Of a stretch of 32,199 nt of DNA, positions 4,541-30,209 are shown in pieces (position 1 is the stretch's first letter; each line of letters starts with the position of its first letter). The position numbers and the translations under genes were made by a program. The DNA is taken from NCBI GenBank assembly GCA_043786835.1, contig JAYVVR010000202.1, positions 1 through 32,199 of the forward strand, given 5' to 3'. Below the pieces are notes generated by a model. That model was given only the letters and a program-made list of their open reading frames with translations. It was not told the origin of the DNA and made no database searches. The stretch is from Armatimonadota bacterium. Its GTDB lineage: Bacteria > Armatimonadota > Armatimonadia > Armatimonadales > Capsulimonadaceae.

Positions 4541-6937
4541 ATGGCCGTTAAATCGTCCCCCGAACGCCCGGCGGCACGGCAGCCGCGCCCGTCCCAAGCG
4601 CCCAGCCGAACGACCCCGCCGCGTCCACCGCGTAACAATAGCCGCTTCGCCCATGATATGTCCGGACTTGCGCTGCTTGCACTCGGCCTCATTCTCGGCG
4701 TCAGCCTTGTGCTGTCCCGTCGGGGCCATGCCGGGCTGCTCGGGGACTGGCTGGTGGTTGGCCTGCGCTCGGTGGTCGGCATCGGGGCCTGGGTCTTCCC
4801 CGCGCTTCTGTGCGCCGTCGGCTTCATGCTCATTCAAGGCAGGCACCGGACAACCCGAACAAACTTTGCCGGCGGCGCGGCCCTGCTGTTTCTCGTCGGC
4901 ATTTCCTGGTGGCATCTTGCTCACACGACCCGCGCGACCGAATGGACGGACATCACCGAAGGCGGCTATCTCGGCGCAGCAGTGTCATCGGGGCTTCGGG
5001 CGCTTGTCGGCGACGTTTCCACTCACATTGCTTTGTTTTTGTTCTCCGTCGGTGCGGTCGTTTGGGCCACTGACATGCGCCTGCTGCATTTGTTCGACCA
5101 CGCAGTCGCCGGCGGAAAGCGTGTCGGGGCACCAATTGCTCAGGGCGCTGAGGCACTCAGGGAGCGGGCCGCCCAGCGGCGGATCTATACGCCGGAACCC
5201 ACCCCGCCTCGTCCCTCGGTCTCCCCTCCCCTCTTGCAGCGTCTTGCCTCAGAGACGGGAAGGGCTGGAGTTTTAGATGCGCCGACCATTCGTATCGCCA
5301 CGCCTGAACCACCCGCCCCTATCCGCGACACGTCTTTGTCCTCCCTAACAGGGAGGACCCCTGCGAGCGAAGCGAACAAGGAGGTGGGCTCTAACATATC
5401 GGGTTCCATCCCTATCCTTCTATCCGAAACACCGAAAGCGCCTGCAGGGCCGCTGATTATTCCCGAGGCGCTTGGCGATGACGGCACCAAGCACGAATAT
5501 ATCCTACCGCCGCTTGAGCTTTTGAACGAAGCGCCGCCGAAGCCTGTCCAGCATGAGTCGGCCATCCGCGAAAAGCAGGCGGTTCTCATGCAGACACTCA
5601 ACGACTTCAAGATCGGCGCGAATGTCTCCCAGGTCGCGATGGGGCCGACCGTCACCCGTTACGAAGTCCAGCTTGAGCCGGGCATTCTGGTCCGCAAAAT
5701 CGTTGCCCTCGCTGACAATCTTGCCATGTCGCTCGCCGCGATTGATGTCCGGGTCGAAGCCCCCATCCCCGGCAAGGCCGCCATCGGCATCGAAGTCCCG
5801 AACGATGTCACCCAGATGGTGTCTTTGCGTGAATGCCTCGCCACAAACGAGTTTATGAACGCTCCGTCGAAGCTGACATTTGCACTCGGCAAAGACGTTT
5901 CCGGCGAATACAAATATGCCGACCTGACCCGAATGCCGCACCTCTTAGTCGGTGGCAGCACGAACAGCGGCAAAAGCGTGTGTTTAAACGTCATTATCAG
6001 CTCGATCATCTACCGGGCGACCCCGCGCGAAGTCAAGTTCGTCATGATTGACCCGAAGCGCGTCGAGCTATCGCTGTATGACGGCATTCCGCACCTGCTC
6101 GCGCCGGTCATCAAAGATGTCAAGCAGGCCGCCGGCATCTTTCGGAGCGTCCTCAAAGAAATGGAAGAGCGCTACGACCGCTTTGCCCGGCTTGGCACCC
6201 GGAACATCGAAGGCTTCAATTCCCGTGTCCCGCCCGAAGAGCGCCTGCCGTTTATCGTGGTGGTCGTGGACGAACTTGCCGATCTCATGATGCAGCAGGG
6301 TCCCGAAGTCGAGACTTCTATCTGCAGGATCGCCCAATTAGCCCGCGCCACCGGCATCCATCTGGTGATTGCCACCCAGCGCCCGTCGGTGGACGTCATC
6401 ACCGGTACGATTAAAGCCAATATCTCATCGCGCATTGCCTTCGCCGTCGCCACGCAGATAGACAGCCGGACCATTATTGACATGCCCGGCGCGGACCGGC
6501 TGATTGGGCGCGGCGATATGCTCTATATGCCGATTGACGCCGCAAAGCCTCTTCGCGTCCAGGGCTGCTACGTCGGTGAGCGCGAGACCGAAGAACTCGT
6601 CAAATACTTACGCAATCAAGAAGAAGCCGTCTACACCATGATCCCCTCCGAGTCCAGTAGTGGCGGCTACGGCGCGGACGGCGGGGACGACGGCTCTTCC
6701 GACGAGCTGTTTGAACCCTGCGTTCGCTGGCTCGTCATGCAGGGCCAGTGTTCAACGTCCAGCTTGCAGCGCAAGTTCAAGATTGGCTACACCCGTGCCG
6801 CCCGCCTTGTAGAAGTCATGGAAGCCCGCCAGATCGTCGGCTCTCAAGACGGCGTCAAGCCCCGCGAGATCCTGCTGCGCTCCGAAAACCTAGAAACCTT
6901 CTTCGCTGGCACCCAGCAGGGCGATCTAGGACAGTGA
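4541..6937 (+). CDS. ftsK: DNA translocase FtsK/SpoIIIE
   Basis: 798 aa. N-terminal TM helices, a Pro/Ser-rich linker, a motor domain with Walker A 'GGSTNSGKS' and Walker B 'VVVVDELADLM', and a C-terminal gamma-like winged helix ('QRKFKIGYTRAARLVEVME'). Confidence 0.95.
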   Translation: MAVKSSPERPAARQPRPSQAPSRTTPPRPPRNNSRFAHDMSGLALLALGLILGVSLVLSRRGHAGLLGDWLVVGLRSVVGIGAWVFPALLCAVGFMLIQGRHRTTRTNFAGGAALLFLVGISWWHLAHTTRATEWTDITEGGYLGAAVSSGLRALVGDVSTHIALFLFSVGAVVWATDMRLLHLFDHAVAGGKRVGAPIAQGAEALRERAAQRRIYTPEPTPPRPSVSPPLLQRLASETGRAGVLDAPTIRIATPEPPAPIRDTSLSSLTGRTPASEANKEVGSNISGSIPILLSETPKAPAGPLIIPEALGDDGTKHEYILPPLELLNEAPPKPVQHESAIREKQAVLMQTLNDFKIGANVSQVAMGPTVTRYEVQLEPGILVRKIVALADNLAMSLAAIDVRVEAPIPGKAAIGIEVPNDVTQMVSLRECLATNEFMNAPSKLTFALGKDVSGEYKYADLTRMPHLLVGGSTNSGKSVCLNVIISSIIYRATPREVKFVMIDPKRVELSLYDGIPHLLAPVIKDVKQAAGIFRSVLKEMEERYDRFARLGTRNIEGFNSRVPPEERLPFIVVVVDELADLMMQQGPEVETSICRIAQLARATGIHLVIATQRPSVDVITGTIKANISSRIAFAVATQIDSRTIIDMPGADRLIGRGDMLYMPIDAAKPLRVQGCYVGERETEELVKYLRNQEEAVYTMIPSESSSGGYGADGGDDGSSDELFEPCVRWLVMQGQCSTSSLQRKFKIGYTRAARLVEVMEARQIVGSQDGVKPREILLRSENLETFFAGTQQGDLGQ
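5333..5390 (+). repeat. Copy A of the CCTCCC/GGGAGG hairpin repeat, embedded in frame in the ftsK linker
   Basis: 9-bp hairpin gtcctccct-aac-agggaggac (5338-5358). Its flanks match copy B at 9801-9864 (22 of 28 nt over the core, plus a shared caagNaggtggg block). Confidence 0.7.
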
Positions 6938-9412: not shown

Positions 9413-9768
9413 AGCCGTGGACATATCTGAGTTATGAGCTGTGGTGGGCGCTGCCGGTGATTGCGCTGCAATGGGCGGCTGCCGGGCGGGAGCTATGGCG
9501 CTGGCGTCGACTGCTGGTCGTCTCGGTGGTGCTGGCAACAGCCTACTTAGGAGCCTGTGATGCGTTTGCGCTGGGTCACGGGATTTGGAGCGTTGATCCA
9601 AACCGCGTGGTCGGGGTGTACGCCGGGCCGCTGCCGCTGGAAGAGTTAGTCTTTTATTTTGTGACGAACATTATGGCCGCGCAGGGGTTTGTCCTGATCG
9701 CCGGGTTCTTACGGGAGCGGAGAACCCGCCCCACTGCAAGCAGCGACCCTCCCGAAACGGGAGGATGA
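9409..9768 (+). CDS. crtYd: Lycopene cyclase domain protein, heterodimeric CrtYd-type subunit
   Basis: GTG 9409 overlaps the crtYc stop (GTGA). 'CDAFALGHGIWS' and 'PLPLEELVFYFVTN' mirror the motifs of the first subunit. The listed 9307 start lies inside crtYc. Confidence 0.7.
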   Translation: MKPWTYLSYELWWALPVIALQWAAAGRELWRWRRLLVVSVVLATAYLGACDAFALGHGIWSVDPNRVVGVYAGPLPLEELVFYFVTNIMAAQGFVLIAGFLRERRTRPTASSDPPETGG

Positions 9769-24196: not shown

Positions 24197-25156
24197 TTGA
24201 AAACTATGCCGGACCCGACAGAACAATTGACGCCTCCATCGCCGACACCCGGCAAACGTACTTCTTTGCCGCGCTCCTACTTGTGGGCATTGCTGGTCGC
24301 CGGGCTGGTCGCCGCCGGGCTCGCCGCTCTGCTTCACTTTTCTCCGGCAGCTCCGGCTCCACATTCCCCAGCAGCGGTTCTGCCGGTCACGATGCCGGAG
24401 ATAAATCCGTCCGCAGTTCCCATCAATATCACCAAAAAACCGGCGCAGACTTCAGAAACGCCGCTCATGGTAACGCTCTCCAGCGGCGCCGCCGGGAAAC
24501 CTGTGCGCGTGGGAAAACCCGTGATGATCTTGGCTTACGCAGAACTGCCGCCGGGCGCAAGCGCGACGCTTGCAGTCTCATACAGCCGAAACCATGGACC
24601 ACAGACCCTGCTGGCGCTGGTGCAGGGCAGCCTTGCGACTATTGCCTGGACCCCGATCCTGCCGGGGCAGTACGACTTTACAGCTTCCGCGATGGATGCC
24701 CGCAAAAACAGTGCGCTCTCGCATCATCTTTTGATTGCCGCCGACGCCGCCCCAGTCCTTCCCATGCCCGTGTTCGTCCCTGCCCCATCGCTGCCAGTGC
24801 AGGTCGCCGTAACGGAGCCGAGCAGGAGCGTCCAGCGAGTGCGTCCACGACGACCGGTGCAGAAACGGAGCAAATCCGCGCAAAGACCGAATTCACCCGA
24901 ACTTGCCGCCGGGCAGCCAGCAGTTTTACACGCCTACCATGTCGCCGCCGGGGCATTTATCGTTCGCCCTGTCGCCGAAACACTGGCCGGGGCGTTGCGG
25001 CGGCACGGCTTTCATGCGTCCGTTCGTCTCGGCCCTATCCTATATCACAAACAGAGCTACGTTGTCGAGACCGGGGCTTACTTGCGGCCGGCAGACGCAA
25101 ACCGGCAGCGCGATACGCTGAAGCGCAGCGGCTATCCCGCCTATATTTTTCAGTAG
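24197..25156 (+). CDS. SPOR-domain (peptidoglycan-binding) membrane-anchored protein
   Basis: N-terminal TM 'LWALLVAGLVAAGLAALL'. The C-terminal ~75 aa 'YHVAAGAFIVRPVAETLAGALRRHGFHASV...YVVETGAYLRPADANRQRDTLKRSGYPAYI' has the SPOR beta-alpha-beta repeat pattern. Confidence 0.65.
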   Translation: MKTMPDPTEQLTPPSPTPGKRTSLPRSYLWALLVAGLVAAGLAALLHFSPAAPAPHSPAAVLPVTMPEINPSAVPINITKKPAQTSETPLMVTLSSGAAGKPVRVGKPVMILAYAELPPGASATLAVSYSRNHGPQTLLALVQGSLATIAWTPILPGQYDFTASAMDARKNSALSHHLLIAADAAPVLPMPVFVPAPSLPVQVAVTEPSRSVQRVRPRRPVQKRSKSAQRPNSPELAAGQPAVLHAYHVAAGAFIVRPVAETLAGALRRHGFHASVRLGPILYHKQSYVVETGAYLRPADANRQRDTLKRSGYPAYIFQ

Positions 25157-25215
25157 CCGTAACGCGCCGGAACTTTTGGGTGGTCCTGTGCCTTTTTCTT
25201 TTACTAGTGTTGTTA

Positions 25216-25224
25216 TGGTAAAAT
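25216..25224 (+). promoter_or_regulatory. Candidate extended -10 element (TGGTAAAAT) 7 nt upstream of the cysD ATG (possible leaderless transcript)
   Basis: TG at 25216-25217, TAAAAT at 25219-25224 and ATG at 25232. Confidence 0.3.
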
Positions 25225-25231
25225 AAAGGCT

Positions 25232-26155
25232 ATGACCGTTATGCTGAATTCTGAACTGACCCAAGTCTCACATTTGTCGGAACTCGAAGCCGAGTCCATC
25301 TTTATCCTCCGCGAAGTCGCCGCTCAGTTTGAGCGGTCTGCGCTGCTGTTTTCCGGCGGCAAAGACTCGATTATTCTCAGCCACCTTGCCCGTAAAGCAT
25401 TCTGGCCGGCAAAAATCCCGTTTCCGCTGCTTCATATTGACACCGGGCACAACTTCCCCGAAACGCTGTCCTACCGCGATGATTGGATGGAAGTCATCGG
25501 CGCGAAGCTAATCGTTCGATCTGTTCAAGACTCAATCAATCAAGGCCGGGCCGTTGAAGAGAAAGGCTACAATGCCAGCCGAAACTTACTGCAAACCGTG
25601 ACGCTTCTCGATGCCCTCGAAGAGCTGAAAATAGACGCGGCGATGGGCGGGGCCAGGCGGGACGAAGAAAAAGCCCGCGCCAAGGAGCGTTTCTTCTCGC
25701 ACCGGGACGAGTTCGGCCAGTGGGACCCCAAAAACCAGCGTCCTGAACTGTGGAACCTGTTTAACGGCCACAAGCATCTTGGCGAGCATTTCCGGGTCTT
25801 CCCCATTTCCAACTGGACGGAAATGGATGTCTGGCAATATATTTTACAGGAGCAGATCGCCCTGCCGAGCATTTATTTCACGCATGAGCGCGAAGTGATT
25901 GTCCGCGACGGCAATCTGCTCGCCGCCTCCGAGTATCTAAATACGCGCCCGACCGAAACGCCCGAAGTTCGGCAGGTGCGTTTCCGAACTATTGGCGACA
26001 TGACCTGCACCGGCGCGGTTCTTTCTCCCGCCAACAGTTTGGAAGAGATTATCCAGGAAGTCGCCGCAAGCCGCCAAACCGAGCGCGGCACCCGCGCCGA
26101 CGACAAACGCTCCGAAGCCGCGATGGAAGACCGCAAAAAAGAAGGCTACTTTTGA
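25232..26155 (+). CDS. cysD: Sulfate adenylyltransferase subunit 2
   Basis: 307 aa. 'LSELEAESIFILREV', PP-loop 'LFSGGKDS', 'RRDEEKARAKERFFS' and 'FRVFPISNWTEMDVWQYI' match CysD throughout. Confidence 0.95.
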   Translation: MTVMLNSELTQVSHLSELEAESIFILREVAAQFERSALLFSGGKDSIILSHLARKAFWPAKIPFPLLHIDTGHNFPETLSYRDDWMEVIGAKLIVRSVQDSINQGRAVEEKGYNASRNLLQTVTLLDALEELKIDAAMGGARRDEEKARAKERFFSHRDEFGQWDPKNQRPELWNLFNGHKHLGEHFRVFPISNWTEMDVWQYILQEQIALPSIYFTHEREVIVRDGNLLAASEYLNTRPTETPEVRQVRFRTIGDMTCTGAVLSPANSLEEIIQEVAASRQTERGTRADDKRSEAAMEDRKKEGYF

Positions 26156-26712
26156 TGTCAGCAAGTCTTGAACTTGAAGTCCCATACCCATTGAGCGACT
26201 GCCTTCAGCACAGCGAGACGATCTGCGTTCGTGAATGCTGCGGCATTGACGCGATCTCCGATGATCCAGAATTGGTCGCGCAATGGGGCCGGACTGTCGG
26301 GTACGGGACAGTTCAGCAGGCGCTGATACAAGTCCGAGAACTTATTGCACAGGTTGAGGACCTTTCTCAGAAAGTATGTATCTCGTTCCTCAATGCTTGC
26401 GTCATCGGCGAGATTACACGCGAGAAACCACTGTCGTTCTTGCAGGCTTTTGAGGCCGCATTAAGGTGTCGCCTAATGAATGAAGTTCTGACACGCGCTG
26501 AAATGGAAGTGCAGTTCGATGGCGAATGGGTCTTGGTTTCGGACCCAGAATTGGATAAAAATATGGAAGTCGTTAAAGGGCTGGTGGTCAGTCACGGCAA
26601 AGACCCGGAGGCTGTCTATCAGGCCGCGATTGACCTGGGCGTGACCCATTCAGCCTCTCTTTACTTCGGACCGATCCCGGAGATGTCCATTTTGCTGAAT
26701 ATTTGGCTATGA
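26155..26712 (+). CDS. Hypothetical two-part protein: Cys-rich N-domain fused to a DUF5678-like C-terminal domain
   Basis: ATG 26155 overlaps the cysD TGA by 1 nt. N-part 'DCLQHSETICVRECCGIDA' (C-x8-C-x3-CC). C-part 'FDGEWVLVSDPELDKNMEVVKGLVVSHGKDPEAVYQAAIDLG' resembles the small DUF5678-type proteins I recall next to retropepsin-like proteases. Confidence 0.5.
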   Translation: MSASLELEVPYPLSDCLQHSETICVRECCGIDAISDDPELVAQWGRTVGYGTVQQALIQVRELIAQVEDLSQKVCISFLNACVIGEITREKPLSFLQAFEAALRCRLMNEVLTRAEMEVQFDGEWVLVSDPELDKNMEVVKGLVVSHGKDPEAVYQAAIDLGVTHSASLYFGPIPEMSILLNIWL

Positions 26713-27095
26713 GTGTCGCCTTCAACCCTATACAGGGATTAGTTCTTTTTCCGGCGACCTTGTCCGGCCCGTCAGGAACCCATGTTGCCCAGATTGCGCT
26801 TGACACGGCAGCAACGGAAACAACTTTGAGTAAACGCCTGCTCAGGCTAATTGGCTGTTATTCCAACGGCATTTCCTATCCGACGGCCTGGGTGACCGTG
26901 GGTAATGGCGTAGTGGCAGTGCCGCAAGTCACGGTGAACATGCTGGAAACTCTAGGACAGCAAAACTCCGATTTTGTCGTTCAGGCGCACACCCTGCCGC
27001 CAGGACTACCGATGGATGGGCTGCTCGGCCTTGACTTCATCCGCCAGTATCGTCTCGGCGTTGATTTTCGGACCGGCTTTATGGTCTTGGAATAA
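26709..27095 (+). CDS. Retropepsin-like (clan AA) aspartic protease homolog with a D-T-A active-site variant
   Basis: ATG 26709 overlaps the upstream stop (ATGA). 'IALDTAATETTLS' aligns with the DTGA active-site loop, and 'GLLGLDFIRQY...VDFRTGFMVLE' matches the C-terminal family pattern. Confidence 0.65.
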   Translation: MSVAFNPIQGLVLFPATLSGPSGTHVAQIALDTAATETTLSKRLLRLIGCYSNGISYPTAWVTVGNGVVAVPQVTVNMLETLGQQNSDFVVQAHTLPPGLPMDGLLGLDFIRQYRLGVDFRTGFMVLE

Positions 27096-27108
27096 GTGAG
27101 GAGCATTG

Positions 27109-27696
27109 ATGAGCTTACGCCTTGACCAGCAAATCGGCTTTATTCTCGAACTCGACACACTCAAAAGCGTCCTGCGCCGAAGCTATCTGCTCAATAATAC
27201 GCAGCGCGAGAACTCGGCGGAGCATTCGTGGCATTTGTCGGCGATGGCCCTCGTGCTGGCAGAACACGCAAACGCAGACATTGACCAGTTTCGGGTTCTC
27301 AAAATGCTTTTGGTGCATGACATTGTCGAAATTGACTCCGGCGACACCTATATCTACGACACCGCCGGGAACGACACCAAAGCCGTCCGTGAACAGGAAG
27401 CCGCCCAGCGCATTTTTGGCCTGCTGCCCGACGACCAAAAGTTGGAGCTAACGCAGTTATGGCAGGAGTTCGAGGCGCGGGAAACGCCGGAAGCGAAGTT
27501 CGCCGCCGCGCTCGATAGACTCATGCCGCTGCTGCATAACTACCACACGGAAGGCCGAAGCTGGCGGGAACATGGGATTACGAAACAGCAGGTGCTGAAC
27601 TTGAACCGGCACATCGCCGACGGCTCGCAGTCGCTCTGGGAATACGCCGAATCGCTGATTGACGACGCGGCGGCGAAGGGGTATTTGGTGGGCTGA
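27109..27696 (+). CDS. HD-domain phosphohydrolase (YfbR-like 5'-deoxynucleotidase family)
   Basis: GAGGAG lies 5 nt upstream of ATG 27109. 'RENSAEHSWH' and 'LLVHDIVEIDSGD' give the H...HD...D metal ligands in the YfbR/HD_3 arrangement. Confidence 0.8.
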   Translation: MSLRLDQQIGFILELDTLKSVLRRSYLLNNTQRENSAEHSWHLSAMALVLAEHANADIDQFRVLKMLLVHDIVEIDSGDTYIYDTAGNDTKAVREQEAAQRIFGLLPDDQKLELTQLWQEFEARETPEAKFAAALDRLMPLLHNYHTEGRSWREHGITKQQVLNLNRHIADGSQSLWEYAESLIDDAAAKGYLVG

Positions 27697-27705
27697 AAAG
27701 AGGAA

Positions 27706-27784
27706 GAACCTCACCCGGCCTCGTTCCTCGTCCACCCTCTCCTTGAGAAAGGAGAGGGTCGGAACGGAGTTCCGGCGTGAGGTT
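27706..27784. repeat. 79-nt imperfect palindrome (copy C, related to the CCTCCC/GGGAGG repeat family); possible intrinsic terminator
   Basis: Nested arms: aacctcac..ccgg / ccgg..gtgaggtt, ctcgttcc / ggaacggag, and an 11-bp core accctctcctt-gaga-aaggagagggt (27734-27760). A T-run follows at 27783-27786. Confidence 0.7.
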
Positions 27785-27874
27785 TTCCCAGTGCCGCGAA
27801 GCGGTACTTCGCAGCGTCTGCGCTGTGTAGCTGTGCAATTTATTGCATGGCTCGAAGATACTACTGGGGACACT

Positions 27875-28324
27875 ATGATTGACGCCGACACTGGAAACAT
27901 CCATCTGCCAAACGGCTACGTTATCACGCCCGCGCTGACGCTGGACAAGTTTCGGCAGGCGTGGTCTGGGCGGCTTGGCTGGAGGTCCCAGATGAACGGG
28001 GGGCTAGTTAAGACATTCCTGCTCGAAGTAAACATACATTTTGACGCACAGAGGCTGGCAAGAGTGTCTCTTGTGGCTGACCTATCCCACGTTACGAAGG
28101 ATGATCGGCAACATTGGATTGACACAAAGGCCTTCCATGACGCGCTAATTAGAAACGACTTAGGTGAGCCGGACGCTTTTACCGACACTTACGGTATGGA
28201 CGCTCCTGAACTCGGCAAAGCGCCGAACTATCTGCGGGCCTGGGGAAAAGCAGTTTCCGAGTTCGATTACGGCGGCGGCGATGCCTACATTTCGGTTGAA
28301 TATAAAAACGACAAAGCATTATGA
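27875..28324 (+). CDS. Hypothetical protein, 149 aa
   Basis: ATG 27875 is in frame with the listed 27659 ORF, whose 5' part overlaps the HD gene and the palindrome. The stop overlaps the cysN start (ATGA at 28321). No family recognised. Confidence 0.5.
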   Translation: MIDADTGNIHLPNGYVITPALTLDKFRQAWSGRLGWRSQMNGGLVKTFLLEVNIHFDAQRLARVSLVADLSHVTKDDRQHWIDTKAFHDALIRNDLGEPDAFTDTYGMDAPELGKAPNYLRAWGKAVSEFDYGGGDAYISVEYKNDKAL

Positions 28325-29613
28325 ATGAAACACTGACGACGGATGATTTTTCGACGACGGGCTATCTCGGCATGGATCTGCTGCGGTTTACGACGGCGGG
28401 GAGCGTGGATGATGGCAAAAGTACGCTAATTGGCCGGCTTCTCTACGACAGCAAGGCGATCTTTGATGACCAGTATGAGGCTATTAAAGAGACGACGGAG
28501 CGGCGGGGGGAGGAAGGGGTTAATCTCGCCCTGCTGACCGATGGACTTCGAGCAGAACGGGAGCAGGGCATCACGATTGATGTTGCTTACCGCTACTTTG
28601 CGACCCCAAAACGCAAGTTTATTATCGCGGACACGCCCGGTCATATCCAGTATACACGCAACATGGTCACAGGAGCGTCTACGGCCAATCTCGCGATTAT
28701 CTTGGTAGACGCCCGCAAAGGGGTCATCGAGCAGACCCGGCGGCATACGATTATCGCGTCGCTGCTAGGTATCCCCCACATCGCTGTCTGCGTCAATAAA
28801 ATGGATTTGGTAGACTATAGCCAGACCATCTTCGATGCTATTAAACGCGAATTTGAAGCGTTCGCGGCTGGACTGAACGTCGGCGATGTGTATTTTATTC
28901 CGATTAGCGCACTGAATGGGGACAATGTCGTGGATGCGTCTGCCAATATGGATTGGTACCCTGGCCCGGCACTGCTGCCATTGCTGGAGACCGTGCCGAT
29001 TGAAACCGATATTAACCATACCGACGCCCGGTTTCCGGTGCAGTATGTCATTCGCCCGCAGTCTGCCGAGTTCCCAGACTACCGGGGTTATGCAGGGCGA
29101 ATTGCCGGGGGCGTCTTTCGGCCCGGCGACGCGGTTCAAGTCCTGCCGTCAGGATTTACATCGAAAGTGCTGTCTGTGGACATGATGGAGAAAAGTTTGA
29201 CGGAAGCGACCGCGCCGCTATCAGTGACGCTGACGCTTGAAGACGAGATAGACATCAGCCGGGGCGATATGATTGTGGCCCAGGACAATCCGCCTACGGT
29301 CTCCCAAGACGTTGAAATTATGGTCTGCTGGCTCGGCGAGAAAAGCCTGATGATTGGCGGCAAGTATACACTCAAACACACGACCCGCGAGGTCAGGGCG
29401 ATTGTGAAATCGGTGGACTATAAGCTTGATATCAGTACTTTGGACAAGAATACCGAAAGCAAAAGCGTCAGCCTGAACGAAATCGCCCGGCTGACACTGC
29501 GGACGACCCAGCCGCTGTTTTTTGACCCGTACAAGCGCAACCGGACCACCGGGAGCGTGATTTTGATTGACGAAGCGACCAATGAAACGGTCGGGGCAGG
29601 CATGATTCAATGA
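28321..29613 (+). CDS. cysN: Sulfate adenylyltransferase subunit 1 (GTPase subunit, no fused APS-kinase domain)
   Basis: 430 aa. G1 'GSVDDGKST', G3 'DTPGH' and G4 'NKMD', plus EF-Tu-like domains II/III. 'LRFTTAGSVDDGKSTLIGRLL' is the classic CysN N-terminus. Confidence 0.95.
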   Translation: MNETLTTDDFSTTGYLGMDLLRFTTAGSVDDGKSTLIGRLLYDSKAIFDDQYEAIKETTERRGEEGVNLALLTDGLRAEREQGITIDVAYRYFATPKRKFIIADTPGHIQYTRNMVTGASTANLAIILVDARKGVIEQTRRHTIIASLLGIPHIAVCVNKMDLVDYSQTIFDAIKREFEAFAAGLNVGDVYFIPISALNGDNVVDASANMDWYPGPALLPLLETVPIETDINHTDARFPVQYVIRPQSAEFPDYRGYAGRIAGGVFRPGDAVQVLPSGFTSKVLSVDMMEKSLTEATAPLSVTLTLEDEIDISRGDMIVAQDNPPTVSQDVEIMVCWLGEKSLMIGGKYTLKHTTREVRAIVKSVDYKLDISTLDKNTESKSVSLNEIARLTLRTTQPLFFDPYKRNRTTGSVILIDEATNETVGAGMIQ

Positions 29614-30209
29614 ACCCAGCACGAATTCTGATTCTTGCAGGCGCGGCCCTGCTTCTCAGCGGCTGCGGCGACGACAAGCCCTACAGCGGGCCGGACCCGG
29701 TCCCGCAGGCCGCCAGCTATTCCGCACCTGCGCCGGAAGTCGCCGACAATACCCCGGATCCCTCATTGCCGCCCGACCCCCTGACTTCGGGCATCCATGC
29801 AAGTACCACGCCCGACAACCCTCTGCTCGAACCCAATTCGTTCGCGCCGCGTGACCCACTTGCCGATACCGACCCGCTGGCGGGCCGCAAAATGCCGACC
29901 AACCACTCGCACTGGCTTCGAGGCCAGGTACAGGGTGCGCGGCTGACTATTTTGCTGAACAGCATCCCCGACGGCGAGTATCGGGGGTTCGTTGACAAAG
30001 ACATTACAATGAAGCTGCGGGCAGGCATCAATACGGTCTCGTTTGTGTACACGCCGCAAAACCCAGACGCCTCCGCGCGGATGGACCTTTTGGAAGGCGA
30101 GCATCACCCACCGATTGCCCCGCTGGCAACGTTCCAGAGCCTGCCCCAGCCGCGCAAGGCCACCAAATTCAAAGAAACGACCCAGCGGTTTACGTTTTTT
30201 GCCCATTAA
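29610..30209 (+). CDS. Hypothetical lipoprotein
   Basis: Signal peptide with lipobox 'LLLSGC'. ATG 29610 overlaps the cysN stop (ATGA). A Pro-rich linker precedes a ~100-aa C-terminal domain. Confidence 0.6.
   Translation: MNPARILILAGAALLLSGCGDDKPYSGPDPVPQAASYSAPAPEVADNTPDPSLPPDPLTSGIHASTTPDNPLLEPNSFAPRDPLADTDPLAGRKMPTNHSHWLRGQVQGARLTILLNSIPDGEYRGFVDKDITMKLRAGINTVSFVYTPQNPDASARMDLLEGEHHPPIAPLATFQSLPQPRKATKFKETTQRFTFFAH

What the first reader, a model, noticed from the sequence alone, without database searches (positions are those of the whole stretch)
26152..28324. cysD and cysN are split by a 2.2-kb four-gene cargo that is translationally coupled at both junctions
Seen in the sequence: the cysD stop (TGA 26153-26155) overlaps the ATG (26155) of an unrelated ORF. 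After four ORFs and a 79-nt palindrome, the last cargo ORF's stop overlaps the cysN ATG (ATGA at 28321). The cargo comprises a Cys-rich/DUF5678-like protein, a retropepsin-like protease homolog, an HD (YfbR-like) phosphohydrolase and a 149-aa unknown. Established knowledge: CysD and CysN are the two subunits of one enzyme (ATP sulfurylase) and are normally adjacent and often overlapping; none of the cargo families has a known role in sulfate activation. Inference: either a selfish or defence-like module has lodged inside an operon where polar disruption would be costly, or these proteins form an undescribed accessory or regulatory layer on sulfate assimilation. An HD nucleotidase acting on APS/PAPS-like nucleotides is conceivable. 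This is my best candidate for an undescribed system in the window.
Basis: partly seen in the sequence, partly recalled or inferred. Interest (0 to 1): 0.72.

Follow-up and report, generated by a model that had tools for sequence, protein, structure and literature searches.

The report
Toxin-antitoxin-type gene islet splitting cysD-cysN
In one family of Armatimonadota bacteria, the two genes of the sulfate-activating enzyme are always separated by a nucleotide-phosphatase gene and a changing set of small, selfish toxin-antitoxin-type genes that are read through with the operon; this is a curious, long-lived gene hotspot rather than a new sulfur-metabolism system.

Summary
cysD (25232-26155) and cysN (28321-29613) are bona fide ATP-sulfurylase genes. 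They are split by four same-strand ORFs and a structured 178-nt spacer, with stop/start overlaps at both junctions.

It is not one four-gene cargo and not a recent insertion. All 20 distinct related loci (Capsulimonadaceae-like Armatimonadota, CysD 82-100% identical) carry an island at this site.
- **Fixed gene:** the HD_3 phosphohydrolase is present in every locus and evolves in step with cysD/cysN.
- **Variable slots on both sides:** VapBC-type, MazEF-type and RHH-PIN pairs, ATPase genes, and one to three copies of a DUF5678-like (75 aa) plus retropepsin-like (127 aa) pair.
- **The pair elsewhere:** it recurs with a 4-nt overlap in three unrelated genomes outside any cys context. The retropepsin gene never occurs without the small gene, while the small gene occurs alone.
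- **In the window:** the small gene is fused to DUF6331 (ORF1), and the protease motif reads DTAA.
- **ORF4:** a clade-restricted family that always abuts cysN.

HD_3 homologues from other taxa are never near cysDN, so a sulfur role is unsupported. In other phyla, 13 of 76 cysD-cysN junctions also carry small selfish genes.

Verdict: a new variant of a toxin-antitoxin/defence hotspot, of moderate interest.

The parts
25232..26155 (+). cysD (sulfate adenylyltransferase small subunit, 307 aa). Its last codons (AAAGAAGGCTACTTT-TGA) carry a GAAGG Shine-Dalgarno-like box that serves whichever gene follows.
   Evidence: NCBIfam NF003587 451 bits, TIGR02039 418 bits. Pfam PAPS_reduct 9e-45. Junction sequences across 18 loci.
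26155..26712 (+). ORF1 (185 aa), a fusion of a Cys-rich DUF6331 domain (26155-26463) with a DUF5678-like 80-residue domain (26467-26709). The second domain begins at an internal Met, 'MNEVLT', which is the start of the stand-alone 75-aa gene in other genomes. Proposed to be the neutralising partner (antitoxin-like) of ORF2.
   Evidence: DUF6331 8.9e-17. DUF5678 is sub-threshold at 17 bits. 37-41% identity to 75-aa genes that precede retropepsin-like genes in unrelated genomes. 361 representative clusters carry the domain. AlphaFold2 model pLDDT 75.7 with no PDB fold match.
26709..27095 (+). ORF2 (128 aa from ATG 26709, which overlaps the ORF1 stop as ATGA). A retropepsin-like aspartic-protease homologue whose signature reads DTAA instead of DTGA. 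Proposed to be the toxin or effector half of the two-gene module.
   Evidence: Pfam gag-asp_proteas 33.4 bits (cut-off 28.2) and Asp_protease_2 26.8 bits. PADLOC PDC-M08B 3e-8. 325 homologues, mostly 127 aa. Always preceded by the 75-aa gene. Motif survey.
27109..27696 (+). ORF3 (195 aa from ATG 27109). An HD_3-family metal-dependent phosphohydrolase (YfbR/HDDC2-type, with the H...HD...D motif intact). It is the one fixed gene of the island.
   Evidence: Pfam HD_3 2e-56. PDB 3KH1 3.7e-67 and human HDDC2 5e-18. Present in 20 of 20 clade loci. dN/dS 0.11-0.18 with dS close to that of cysD/cysN.
27697..27874 (.). Structured spacer. It holds a REP-like imperfect palindrome (27706-27784; core CCCTCTCCTT-GAGA-AAGGAGAGGG, outer arms CCTCACCC/GGGTGAGG-like) and three smaller hairpins. 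It occupies the slot where most relatives carry an RHH-PIN gene pair.
   Evidence: Fold of 27690-27880: -87.8 kcal/mol, z = -5.3. The same palindrome type occurs in L002 at 9516-9538 and 5397-5420. No Rfam family. Not called as a terminator. Slot comparison.
27875..28324 (+). ORF4 (149 aa). A clade-restricted family of unknown function, and in every case examined the last island gene. Its stop overlaps the cysN ATG (ATGA). It has a mixed alpha/beta fold with weak resemblance to DUF4309 and Rhs-immunity proteins.
   Evidence: No Pfam, NCBIfam, PADLOC or PHROG match. 27 homologues. Same position in L081, L085, L090, L091 and L175. AlphaFold2 pLDDT 87.3. Foldseek best hits 4ygt (E 6e-3) and 6xtd_B (TM 0.56, E 0.09). 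dN/dS 0.42.
28321..29613 (+). cysN (sulfate adenylyltransferase large GTPase subunit, 430 aa, with no APS-kinase domain).
   Evidence: TIGR02034 580 bits, NF003478 596 bits. Pfam GTP_EFTU and GTP-eEF1A_C.
29610..30209 (+). Downstream 199-aa lipoprotein-like ORF. Its ATG overlaps the cysN stop (ATGA). It is conserved after cysN in all related loci and extends the translationally coupled string.
   Evidence: ORF list. No Pfam match. Equivalent 204-230-aa genes occur after cysN in L081, L082, L085 and L175.

Best explanation
The 2.2-kb stretch is the local state of an old, vertically inherited islet embedded in the cysD-cysN operon of a Capsulimonadaceae-like clade of Armatimonadota. It has three layers.

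1. **A fixed HD_3 gene.** An ordinary HD_3 phosphohydrolase gene (YfbR/HDDC2-type; presumably a nucleotide monophosphatase) became fixed between cysD and cysN in the clade's ancestor.
2. **Variable slots on both sides of it.** Here small addiction-type cassettes and defence-like genes are gained, duplicated, exchanged between strains and lost.
3. **Read-through expression (inferred).** The whole string is transcribed from the cysD side and translated by stop/start coupling, so cysN is still made. The SD-like box at the end of cysD serves whichever gene comes first, and whichever gene comes last overlaps the cysN ATG.

In the window:
- The upstream slot holds one cassette, a DUF5678-like protein (here fused to DUF6331) plus a retropepsin-like protease homologue. 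I propose this is a toxin-antitoxin-like pair in which the small protein neutralises the protease-fold protein.
- The downstream slot holds a REP-like palindrome and ORF4.

Shown: the anatomy, the conservation, the turnover and the pairing rules. Inferred: co-transcription, the toxin/antitoxin roles and the HD_3 substrate.
For: **Identity of the flanking genes.** Both are full-length ATP-sulfurylase genes.

**Ancestral state.** The genes are adjacent in most genomes. Of 76 cysD loci from other lineages, 59 have gaps under 250 nt, including the Armatimonadetes locus L005 with 45 nt.

**Island in every clade member.**
- All 20 distinct clade loci carry HD_3 next to cysD and/or cysN. Thirteen show both genes on one contig.
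- HD_3 has dS of 0.8-1.1 against 0.6-1.1 for cysD/cysN, with dN/dS of 0.11-0.18.

**Turnover around HD_3.**
- VapB-PIN, RHH-PIN, RHH-PemK/MazF, RHH-ATPase (PDC-M28C) and a three-gene ATPase set.
- Up to three full tandem DUF5678-like/retropepsin pairs in L092, plus an extra DUF6331 fragment.
- Decayed copies in L090, although that contig is a 2x-coverage assembly in which cysD and cysN are also split, so some of these breaks may be assembly errors.

**The pair is an independent module.**
- In three unrelated genomes, a 75-aa gene overlaps a 127-aa retropepsin-like gene by 4 nt. The neighbours there are transposases, a type ISP restriction enzyme or housekeeping genes.
- All 15 or so complete retropepsin copies in clade loci follow a DUF5678-like gene.
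- Five loci keep the small gene alone: L002, L088, L091, L095 and L175.
- Cassette similarity is discordant with host similarity. Against L085, RP is 82% identical and cysD 89%; against L081, RP is 57% and cysD 94%.

**Coupling.**
- In L085, 15 consecutive same-strand genes have gaps of 30 nt or less.
- ATGA overlaps at cysN occur with two unrelated upstream families, ORF4 and u126.
- Starts lie 0-3 nt after the cysD stop in 8 of 18 loci with three different following genes, and at 7-21 nt in most of the rest.

**The site is a hotspot elsewhere.** 13 of 76 junctions in Bacteroidota and Verrucomicrobiota carry gene-sized inserts. Ten sampled proteins from eight of them are PDDEXK_3, 23S_rRNA_IVP, AbiEi/AbiEii or PIN_2 genes.
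Against: - **No experiment.** Nothing shows toxicity, neutralisation or defence for the DUF5678-like/retropepsin pair.
- **The small protein is uncharacterised.** It has no recognisable DNA-binding or known antitoxin fold.
- **The PADLOC match is weak.** Only the B component of PDC-M08 matches.
- **The window's protease may be impaired.** It reads DTAA, not DTGA, so it may be catalytically impaired or domesticated.
- **No link to known mobile elements.** Neither gene is found on sequenced plasmids, phages or viral contigs.
- **Fixation of HD_3 is unexplained.** Why HD_3, and nearly always a DUF5678-like gene, is fixed at exactly this site has no explanation. That leaves room for a functional tie.
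- **The hairpin could block read-through.** The strong hairpin at 27706-27784 with a U4 tail could terminate or attenuate transcription. ORF4-cysN would then need its own promoter, and none was found by a sigma-70 scan that may not suit this phylum.
- **Hotspot enrichment is untested.** Insertions at cysD-cysN were not compared with other operon junctions.
- **Saturated dS.** dS for the cassette genes is saturated, so their dN/dS values are unreliable.
Confidence: 0.6

Rival explanations
1. Accessory function in sulfate activation. HD_3, perhaps with the DUF5678-like protein, is a third functional component of the CysDN system in this clade. It might hydrolyse APS, PAPS or PAP, or a nucleotide by-product, and is co-translated with the enzyme.
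For: - HD_3 is at this exact position in 20 of 20 clade loci and is under purifying selection.
- The minimal island is just cysD, DUF6331::DUF5678-like, HD_3, cysN (L088).
- A DUF5678-like gene overlaps HD_3 by 4 nt in L175.
- HD-domain enzymes of this type are nucleotide phosphohydrolases (PMC8475336).
Against: - The linkage traces to a single ancestral event.
- The 69 HD_3 homologues from other taxa (55-68% identity) show no cysD or cysN in the stored flanks (up to 6 kb; 35 loci longer than 6 kb). They also share no conserved neighbour.
- None of 78 other cysD loci has HD_3 within 8 kb.
- The protein is about 60% identical to a generic proteobacterial orthologue, PDB 3KH1.
- No other cys genes lie in the 32-kb window.
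- A housekeeping gene would be retained wherever it sits.
Confidence: 0.12
2. A single integrated defence system. The four ORFs act together as one anti-phage or stress system that happens to sit in the operon.
For: - The retropepsin-like protein matches the PADLOC candidate PDC-M08B.
- HD domains and protease folds occur in defence systems.
- Relatives carry defence-candidate ATPases at the site.
Against: - The four genes do not co-vary. ORF4 is present in 6 of the clade loci, the retropepsin gene is absent in at least 5, and DUF6331 is replaced by a small HAD-like gene or a 100-aa gene in others.
- HD_3 and ORF4 have no PADLOC match.
- The HD_3 phylogeny follows the host while the cassette phylogeny does not.
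Confidence: 0.08
3. A recent insertion of a mobile element, or an assembly artefact, specific to this genome.
For: - GC of the cysD-cysN block (0.50-0.58) is below that of the flanks (0.60-0.65).
- In L085 a 105-bp direct repeat of the cysD 3' end flanks a vapBC insert, which shows that cassettes do enter here.
Against: - The low GC applies to cysD and cysN as much as to the cargo.
- The window has no integrase, transposase, tRNA or flanking direct repeats.
- The same arrangement is found in about 20 independently assembled loci from ENA, JGI and NCBI.
Confidence: 0.03

Closest known systems
Chromosomal type II toxin-antitoxin hotspots and small defence islets
   Same: - Small co-directional two-gene cassettes with overlapping stop and start codons.
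- Several unrelated families stacked at one site: VapBC-type, MazEF-type and RHH-PIN pairs.
- Strain-to-strain turnover, tandem paralogues, decayed copies and orphan 'antitoxin' genes.
   Different: - The site lies inside the operon of a two-subunit enzyme, between the subunit genes, and is translationally chained to them.
- It is fixed across a whole clade.
- It is anchored by a housekeeping-type HD_3 gene.
- No integrase, integron attC sites or tRNA target were found.
PADLOC phage-defence candidate PDC-M08 (component B)
   Same: The retropepsin-like proteins of the island match three PDC-M08B models over nearly their full length (E 3e-8 to 2e-9).
   Different: - The partner (DUF5678-like) protein matches no PDC-M08A or any other PADLOC model, even at E of 5.
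- The candidate is itself uncharacterised, and no paper mentioning it was found.
Small selfish genes in inter-gene spacers of Bacteroidota (23S rRNA intervening-sequence four-helix-bundle proteins, PDDEXK_3/GxxExxY proteins) and free-standing homing-endonuclease genes between phage genes
   Same: - A single small gene or gene pair is wedged between two conserved, co-transcribed genes.
- This is seen at the very same cysD-cysN junction in 13 of 76 loci of other phyla.
   Different: - Those inserts are sporadic single genes.
- Here the insert is a multi-gene, clade-fixed array with different families.
E. coli YfbR / human HDDC2 / PDB 3KH1 HD-domain phosphohydrolases
   Same: - ORF3 is a full-length HD_3 member with the metal-binding H...HD...D residues.
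- It matches 3KH1 at 3.7e-67 and HDDC2 at 5e-18.
- YfbR is a dNMP-specific 5'-nucleotidase (PMC8475336).
   Different: - The substrate of the 3KH1 subgroup is not established.
- The position inside cysDN is unique to this clade.
Retropepsin-like (clan AA) bacterial aspartic proteases, and Ddi1
   Same: - Pfam gag-asp_proteas and Asp_protease_2 score above their cut-offs.
- The C-terminal GLLGLDFIR block aligns with Ddi1.
   Different: - The window copy has DTAA in place of the catalytic DTG(A/S) signature.
- It is a single 128-aa domain, always paired with a 75-aa partner gene.

Membership tests
ATP sulfurylase CysD/CysN pair | Small subunit matches the CysD equivalog or subfamily models over its full length | tested here: met
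   NF003587 451 bits (cut-off 195), NF009214 436 bits (cut-off 413), TIGR02039 418 bits (cut-off 397).
ATP sulfurylase CysD/CysN pair | Large subunit is a CysN-type GTPase | tested here: met
   NF003478 596 bits (cut-off 590), TIGR02034 580 bits (cut-off 336). At 430 aa it has no APS-kinase domain.
HD_3 / YfbR-like HD-domain phosphohydrolase | Pfam HD_3 above the gathering score, with the H...HD...D metal ligands present | tested here: met
   HD_3 190.9 bits (cut-off 22.5). The sequence shows AEHSWH, LLVHDIVEID and ALDRL. 3KH1 matches at 3.7e-67.
HD_3 / YfbR-like HD-domain phosphohydrolase | 5'-(deoxy)nucleotidase activity | not testable with these tools
   Needs an enzyme assay. NCBIfam 5'-deoxynucleotidase PRK03826 scores only 30 bits against a cut-off of 122, so ORF3 is not a YfbR equivalog.
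Retropepsin-like (clan AA) aspartic protease | Pfam family match above the gathering score | tested here: met
   gag-asp_proteas 33.4 bits (cut-off 28.2), Asp_protease_2 26.8 bits (cut-off 24.3).
Retropepsin-like (clan AA) aspartic protease | Catalytic D-(T/S)-G signature | tested here: not met
   The window copy reads LDTAATET. Of the retropepsin copies surveyed, 7 have DTAA and 14 have DTGA or DTGS. The catalytic Asp is kept, but activity is uncertain.
Pfam DUF5678 | Match at or above the gathering score (23.2 bits) | tested here: not met
   17.1-19 bits. 12 of 50 relatives match at E of 0.01 or better (best 4.4e-6), so this is a distant relative, 'DUF5678-like'.
Pfam DUF6331 | Match at or above the gathering score (25 bits) | tested here: met
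   61.6 bits over residues 6-103 of ORF1. The conserved C16, C24, C28 and C29 are seen in the alignment.
Type II toxin-antitoxin module (for ORF1-ORF2) | Two small adjacent co-directional genes, usually overlapping, that move as a unit and have a patchy distribution | tested here: met
   4-nt overlaps in the window and in L171, L173 and L174. Variable copy number and discordant phylogeny.
Type II toxin-antitoxin module (for ORF1-ORF2) | The toxin never occurs without its antitoxin, while orphan antitoxins are tolerated | tested here: met
   All complete retropepsin-like copies follow a DUF5678-like gene. Five loci have the small gene alone. The sample is about 20 loci.
Type II toxin-antitoxin module (for ORF1-ORF2) | The toxin arrests growth and the antitoxin neutralises it by binding; the antitoxin autoregulates | not testable with these tools
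No DNA-binding fold was recognised in the small protein.
PADLOC PDC-M08 candidate system | Both components A and B present | tested here: not met
   Only B matches (3e-8). No model matches the partner even at E of 5.
Integron cassette array / CALIN | attC-type imperfect palindromes after each cassette, with or without an integron integrase | tested here: not met
   There is only one long palindrome in the island. Cassette genes overlap one another without spacers, and no integrase is present in the window.
Integrative mobile element | Recombinase gene and flanking att direct repeats | tested here: not met
   The window has no recombinase and no flanking repeats. Only L085 shows a 105-bp repeat of the cysD tail around a vapBC insert.

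The most novel reading that the evidence does not exclude
The DUF5678-like/retropepsin-like pair is a new toxin-antitoxin (or abortive-infection) family whose effector has an aspartic-protease fold. The cysD-cysN junction of this clade is an 'operon-parasitised' safe harbour. There, a stack of such modules is expressed only through translational coupling to a sulfur-starvation-controlled operon, which ties growth-arrest or defence modules to sulfur status.
Probability: 0.25. Interest if true: 0.65.

Novelty: new variant of a known kind. Interest (0 to 1): 0.45.

Why it matters
- **A tolerated split operon.** It shows that the operon of an obligate two-subunit enzyme can tolerate, for a long evolutionary time, up to about twelve foreign genes between its two cistrons, provided stop/start coupling is preserved. 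It also shows that such a junction can become a lineage-specific hotspot for addiction and defence cassettes.
- **A candidate for testing.** It singles out a widespread two-gene module with no published characterisation that I could find: a 75-aa DUF5678-like gene plus a 127-aa retropepsin-like gene. The small-protein domain alone has 361 representative clusters. Its genomic behaviour is toxin-antitoxin-like.
- **A caution for annotation.** Conservation of HD_3 inside cysDN is one ancestral event, not evidence of a sulfur role.

Tried and rejected
- **Integron/attC reading of the palindrome.** Only one copy exists in 32 kb, the cassettes overlap without spacers, and there is no integrase. Rejected.
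- **Intrinsic terminator or known RNA.** The terminator scan does not call the hairpin, and there is no Rfam hit or tRNA in the window.
- **Sequence conservation of the palindrome in relatives.** Only the motif type recurs, in L002; there is no positional conservation.
- **Plasmid, phage and viral-contig searches with the retropepsin-like protein.** No match.
- **PADLOC and PHROG scans of ORF1, HD_3 and ORF4.** Nothing useful.
- **Fold search of the ORF1 model against the PDB.** No hit better than E = 0.2.
- **Profile searches of the DUF5678-like and ORF4 families against PDB sequences.** Only chance nanobody hits, or none.
- **Conserved neighbours of HD_3 in other taxa.** None; at most 8 of 35 loci share an RRM protein.
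- **Literature.** No paper on DUF6331, PDC-M08, or a retropepsin-like protein combined with toxin-antitoxin. The single DUF5678 hit is an unrelated plant paper.
- **Two apparent giant multi-repeat DUF5678-like proteins (P0164, P0249).** These turned out to be spurious repeat matches.

Full report
**1. The observation**

The + strand carries cysD at 25232-26155 and cysN at 28321-29613. CysD matches the NCBIfam CysD models over its full length (451, 436 and 418 bits, all above cut-off). CysN matches the CysN models (596 and 580 bits) and has no APS-kinase domain.

Four same-strand ORFs and a 178-nt spacer lie between them:
- The cysD TGA (26153-26155) shares its A with the ORF1 ATG (TGATG).
- The ORF1 stop overlaps the ATG at 26709 of ORF2 (ATGA).
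- ORF3 starts at ATG 27109, behind a GAGGAG box.
- The ORF4 stop overlaps the cysN ATG at 28321 (ATGA).
- The cysN stop in turn overlaps the ATG of a 199-aa lipoprotein-like ORF (29610).

The palindrome at 27706-27784 is real. It is the largest of four hairpins in the spacer. A 191-nt segment (27690-27880) containing the spacer folds at -87.8 kcal/mol, z = -5.3. The terminator scan does not call it, and it matches no Rfam family.

**2. What the four ORFs are**

- **ORF1** is a fusion. Residues 6-103 are Pfam DUF6331 (61.6 bits) with four conserved cysteines. Residues of about 105-185 begin at an internal 'MNEVLT' and are a distant relative of DUF5678. The domain scores 17 bits against a cut-off of 23.2, and 12 of 50 family members reach E of 0.01 or better.
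- **ORF2** is a retropepsin-like protein (gag-asp_proteas 33.4 bits). It also matches the PADLOC candidate PDC-M08B (3e-8).
- **ORF3** is a full-length HD_3 phosphohydrolase (2e-56). It matches the structural-genomics protein 3KH1 at 3.7e-67 and is related to human HDDC2. The characterised relative YfbR is a dNMP-specific 5'-nucleotidase (PMC8475336).
- **ORF4** has no family in Pfam, NCBIfam, PADLOC or PHROGs. It has 27 homologues. A confident AlphaFold2 model (pLDDT 87) gives only weak structural matches: DUF4309 (4ygt, E 6e-3) and an Rhs immunity protein (6xtd_B, TM 0.56).

**3. Organism and relatives**

The closest CysD matches are Armatimonadota: an 'Armatimonadales' MAG at 93% and a Capsulimonadaceae chromosome at 89%. 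I collected 20 distinct loci of this clade (CysD 82-100% identical) from:
- the genome scan;
- look-ups of ORF1 and ORF4 homologues;
- a metagenome scan with HD_3.

In every one, HD_3 sits next to cysD and/or cysN. In the 13 loci where the contig is long enough, it lies between them.

HD_3 evolves like its neighbours. Its dS is 0.8-1.1, against 0.6-1.1 for cysD/cysN, and its dN/dS is 0.11-0.18. The arrangement is therefore old and vertically inherited. It is not a recent insertion in this genome.

Outside the clade the two genes are normally adjacent. Of 76 loci, 59 have gaps under 250 nt, including another Armatimonadetes MAG with a 45-nt gap.

**4. The island is a mosaic, not a system**

Mapping 21 reference protein families onto the clade loci shows two variable slots around the fixed HD_3.

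Upstream of HD_3:
- VapB-like plus PIN;
- a small HAD-like gene plus a DUF5678-like gene, with or without a retropepsin-like gene;
- DUF6331::DUF5678-like plus a retropepsin-like gene;
- a 100-aa gene plus a DUF5678-like gene.

Downstream of HD_3:
- RHH plus a PIN-like gene (9 loci; the Pfam PIN assignment for this 149-aa family is only a weak precomputed hit, and the representative tested gave no Pfam match);
- RHH plus an ATPase that hits PDC-M28C (L001);
- an RHH/NikA-like gene plus a PemK/MazF toxin (L097, L100);
- a 68-aa plus 126-aa pair;
- three larger genes including an ORC/Cdc6-like ATPase (L095);
- ORF4 (6 loci).

Some extremes:
- L085 has twelve genes (4.6 kb) between cysD and cysN. 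Fifteen consecutive same-strand genes there have gaps of 30 nt or less.
- L092 has three full tandem DUF5678-like/retropepsin pairs plus an extra DUF6331 fragment.
- L090 has apparently decayed copies. That contig is a 2x-coverage assembly in which cysD and cysN are also split, so some breaks may be assembly errors.
- L088 is minimal: cysD, DUF6331::DUF5678-like, HD_3, cysN.

The window is a reduced version. Its spacer with the palindrome lies where most relatives have the RHH-PIN pair.

**5. The DUF5678-like/retropepsin pair**

The 127-aa retropepsin-like protein has hundreds of homologues at 43-50% identity. The three that carry NCBI names come from Planctomycetota, Acidobacteria/Terriglobia and Rokubacteria. 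In all three unrelated genomes I examined, it is preceded by a 75-aa gene with a 4-nt overlap. The surroundings there were transposases, a type ISP restriction enzyme or plain housekeeping genes. Those 75-aa proteins are 37-41% identical to the C-terminal domain of ORF1.

The domain has 361 representative clusters. Most are stand-alone proteins of 75-100 aa; a few are tandem or fused.

Within the clade:
- every complete retropepsin copy follows a DUF5678-like gene;
- five loci keep the small gene alone;
- cassette similarity is discordant with host similarity. The window's pair is closest to L085 (82-86% identity, where cysD is 89%). It is far from L081 (57-78%, where cysD is 94%).

These are the genomic habits of type II toxin-antitoxin modules. 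On that basis I propose a protease-fold effector neutralised by the small partner. This is inference; nothing here tests toxicity.

The window copy, and six others, read DTAA instead of DTGA at the catalytic signature. It may therefore be impaired.

**6. Coupling**

- **At the cysD end.** cysD ends in AAAGAAGG(C/A/G)TA(C/T)TT(C/T)-stop. The next gene starts 0-3 nt after the stop in 8 of 18 loci, whether it is DUF6331, VapB or the HAD-like gene. In most of the rest it starts at 7-21 nt.
- **At the cysN end.** Two unrelated families, ORF4 and the 126-aa protein, end in an ATGA overlap with cysN.
- **In L085.** A vapBC insert is flanked by a 105-bp, 95%-identical duplicate of the cysD tail. The duplicate forms a 42-codon ORF ending just before ORF1.

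Together these suggest that the original cysD-to-cysN coupling signals have been taken over and preserved by the inserted genes. Co-transcription itself is inferred from spacing only.

**7. Is HD_3 a sulfur enzyme?**

- The 69 HD_3 homologues from other taxa recovered in the metagenome scan (55-68% identity) show no cysD or cysN in the stored flanks (up to 6 kb; 35 loci longer than 6 kb). They also share no conserved neighbour.
- None of the 78 cysD loci from other lineages has HD_3 within 8 kb.
- The window contains no other sulfate-assimilation gene.

The linkage is thus one ancestral event. A dedicated role is not excluded, but it has no comparative support. I give it about 0.12.

**8. The junction elsewhere**

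In Bacteroidota and Verrucomicrobiota, 13 of 76 cysD-cysN junctions carry inserts of 0.5-1.9 kb. Ten sampled proteins from eight of them are:
- PDDEXK_3 (GxxExxY) proteins;
- 23S_rRNA_IVP four-helix-bundle proteins;
- an AbiEi/AbiEii pair;
- a PIN_2 gene.

The junction is therefore recurrently colonised by small selfish genes. I could not test whether this happens more often here than at other operon junctions.

**9. Verdict**

This is a selfish or defence-type hotspot inside an operon, but an old, clade-fixed mosaic anchored by a housekeeping-type HD_3 gene. It is neither a four-gene system nor a sulfur-assimilation accessory.

The novelty is that of a new variant of a known kind, a toxin-antitoxin/defence islet. 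It has an unusual location and coupling, and it contains an uncharacterised, widespread two-gene module that deserves a toxicity test. Interest 0.45.

Noticed in passing
L085:5030-5140 and 5889-5999 (same in L093, L086, L087): A 105-bp direct repeat (95% identical) of the cysD 3' end flanks an inserted VapB-PIN pair. The downstream copy forms a 42-codon ORF (…QEVAASRQTERGTRADDKRSEAAMEDRKKEGYF*) that ends 1 nt before the DUF6331 gene. It looks like a footprint of cassette entry that also preserves the coupling signal.
   Followed up: partly
window 29610-30209: A 199-aa ORF with a lipoprotein-type N-terminus (MNPARILILAGAALLLSGC) overlaps the cysN stop by ATGA. It has no Pfam match. An equivalent 204-230-aa gene follows cysN in all related loci, so cysN is itself coupled to an unknown conserved gene.
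   Followed up: partly
window 25000-29650 versus flanks: The whole cysD-to-cysN block has GC of 0.50-0.58, while the flanks have 0.60-0.65. The best CysD matches outside the clade are Bacteroidota (77-80% identity) rather than other Armatimonadota. The operon may have been acquired horizontally long ago.
   Followed up: no
window 27706-27784; L002:9516-9538 and L002:5397-5420: The palindrome belongs to a dispersed REP-like type (outer arms CCTCACCC/GGGTGAGG, core CCCTCTCC…GGAGAGGG). The type recurs at other positions in a related Capsulimonadaceae chromosome. There is only one copy in this 32-kb window.
   Followed up: partly
L003, L016, L023, L024, L032, L039, L042, L049, L051, L056, L057, L072, L079 (cysD-cysN spacers): 13 of 76 cysD-cysN junctions in Bacteroidota and Verrucomicrobiota carry inserts of 0.5-1.9 kb. 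Sampled proteins from eight of them are PDDEXK_3, 23S_rRNA_IVP, AbiEi/AbiEii or PIN_2 genes. Two spacers (L027, L079) contain short tandem repeats instead.
   Followed up: partly
L095:6855-10089: One relative carries three larger genes (263, 378 and 451 aa; the last is an ORC/Cdc6-like AAA ATPase) between the RHH gene and cysN. None matches PADLOC. This may be an undescribed defence-type trio.
   Followed up: partly
window 26709-27095 and homologues: The retropepsin-like proteins split into DTGA/DTGS (14 copies) and DTAA (7 copies, including the window) at the catalytic signature. The DTAA copies include one apparently decayed gene in L090.
   Followed up: partly
P0165, P0167, P0252: The DUF5678-like domain also occurs as tandem doubles (172-207 aa). 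In P0252 it is fused to the C-terminus of an unrelated 255-aa domain. Together with the DUF6331 fusion in the window, this suggests a modular partner-binding domain.
   Followed up: no
window 26471-26492 and 28316-28337: The internal 'ATGAATGAAGTTCTGAC' (MNEVLT, the start of the DUF5678-like domain) resembles the cysN start 'ATGAATGAAACACTGAC' (MNETLT). They are 77% identical over 22 nt. This is probably chance, but it sits at two junction points.
   Followed up: no
L081:298-642, L082:1050-1684: Related loci carry ParE-toxin-type pairs a few kilobases upstream of cysD, so the surrounding chromosome region is also rich in toxin-antitoxin genes.
   Followed up: no
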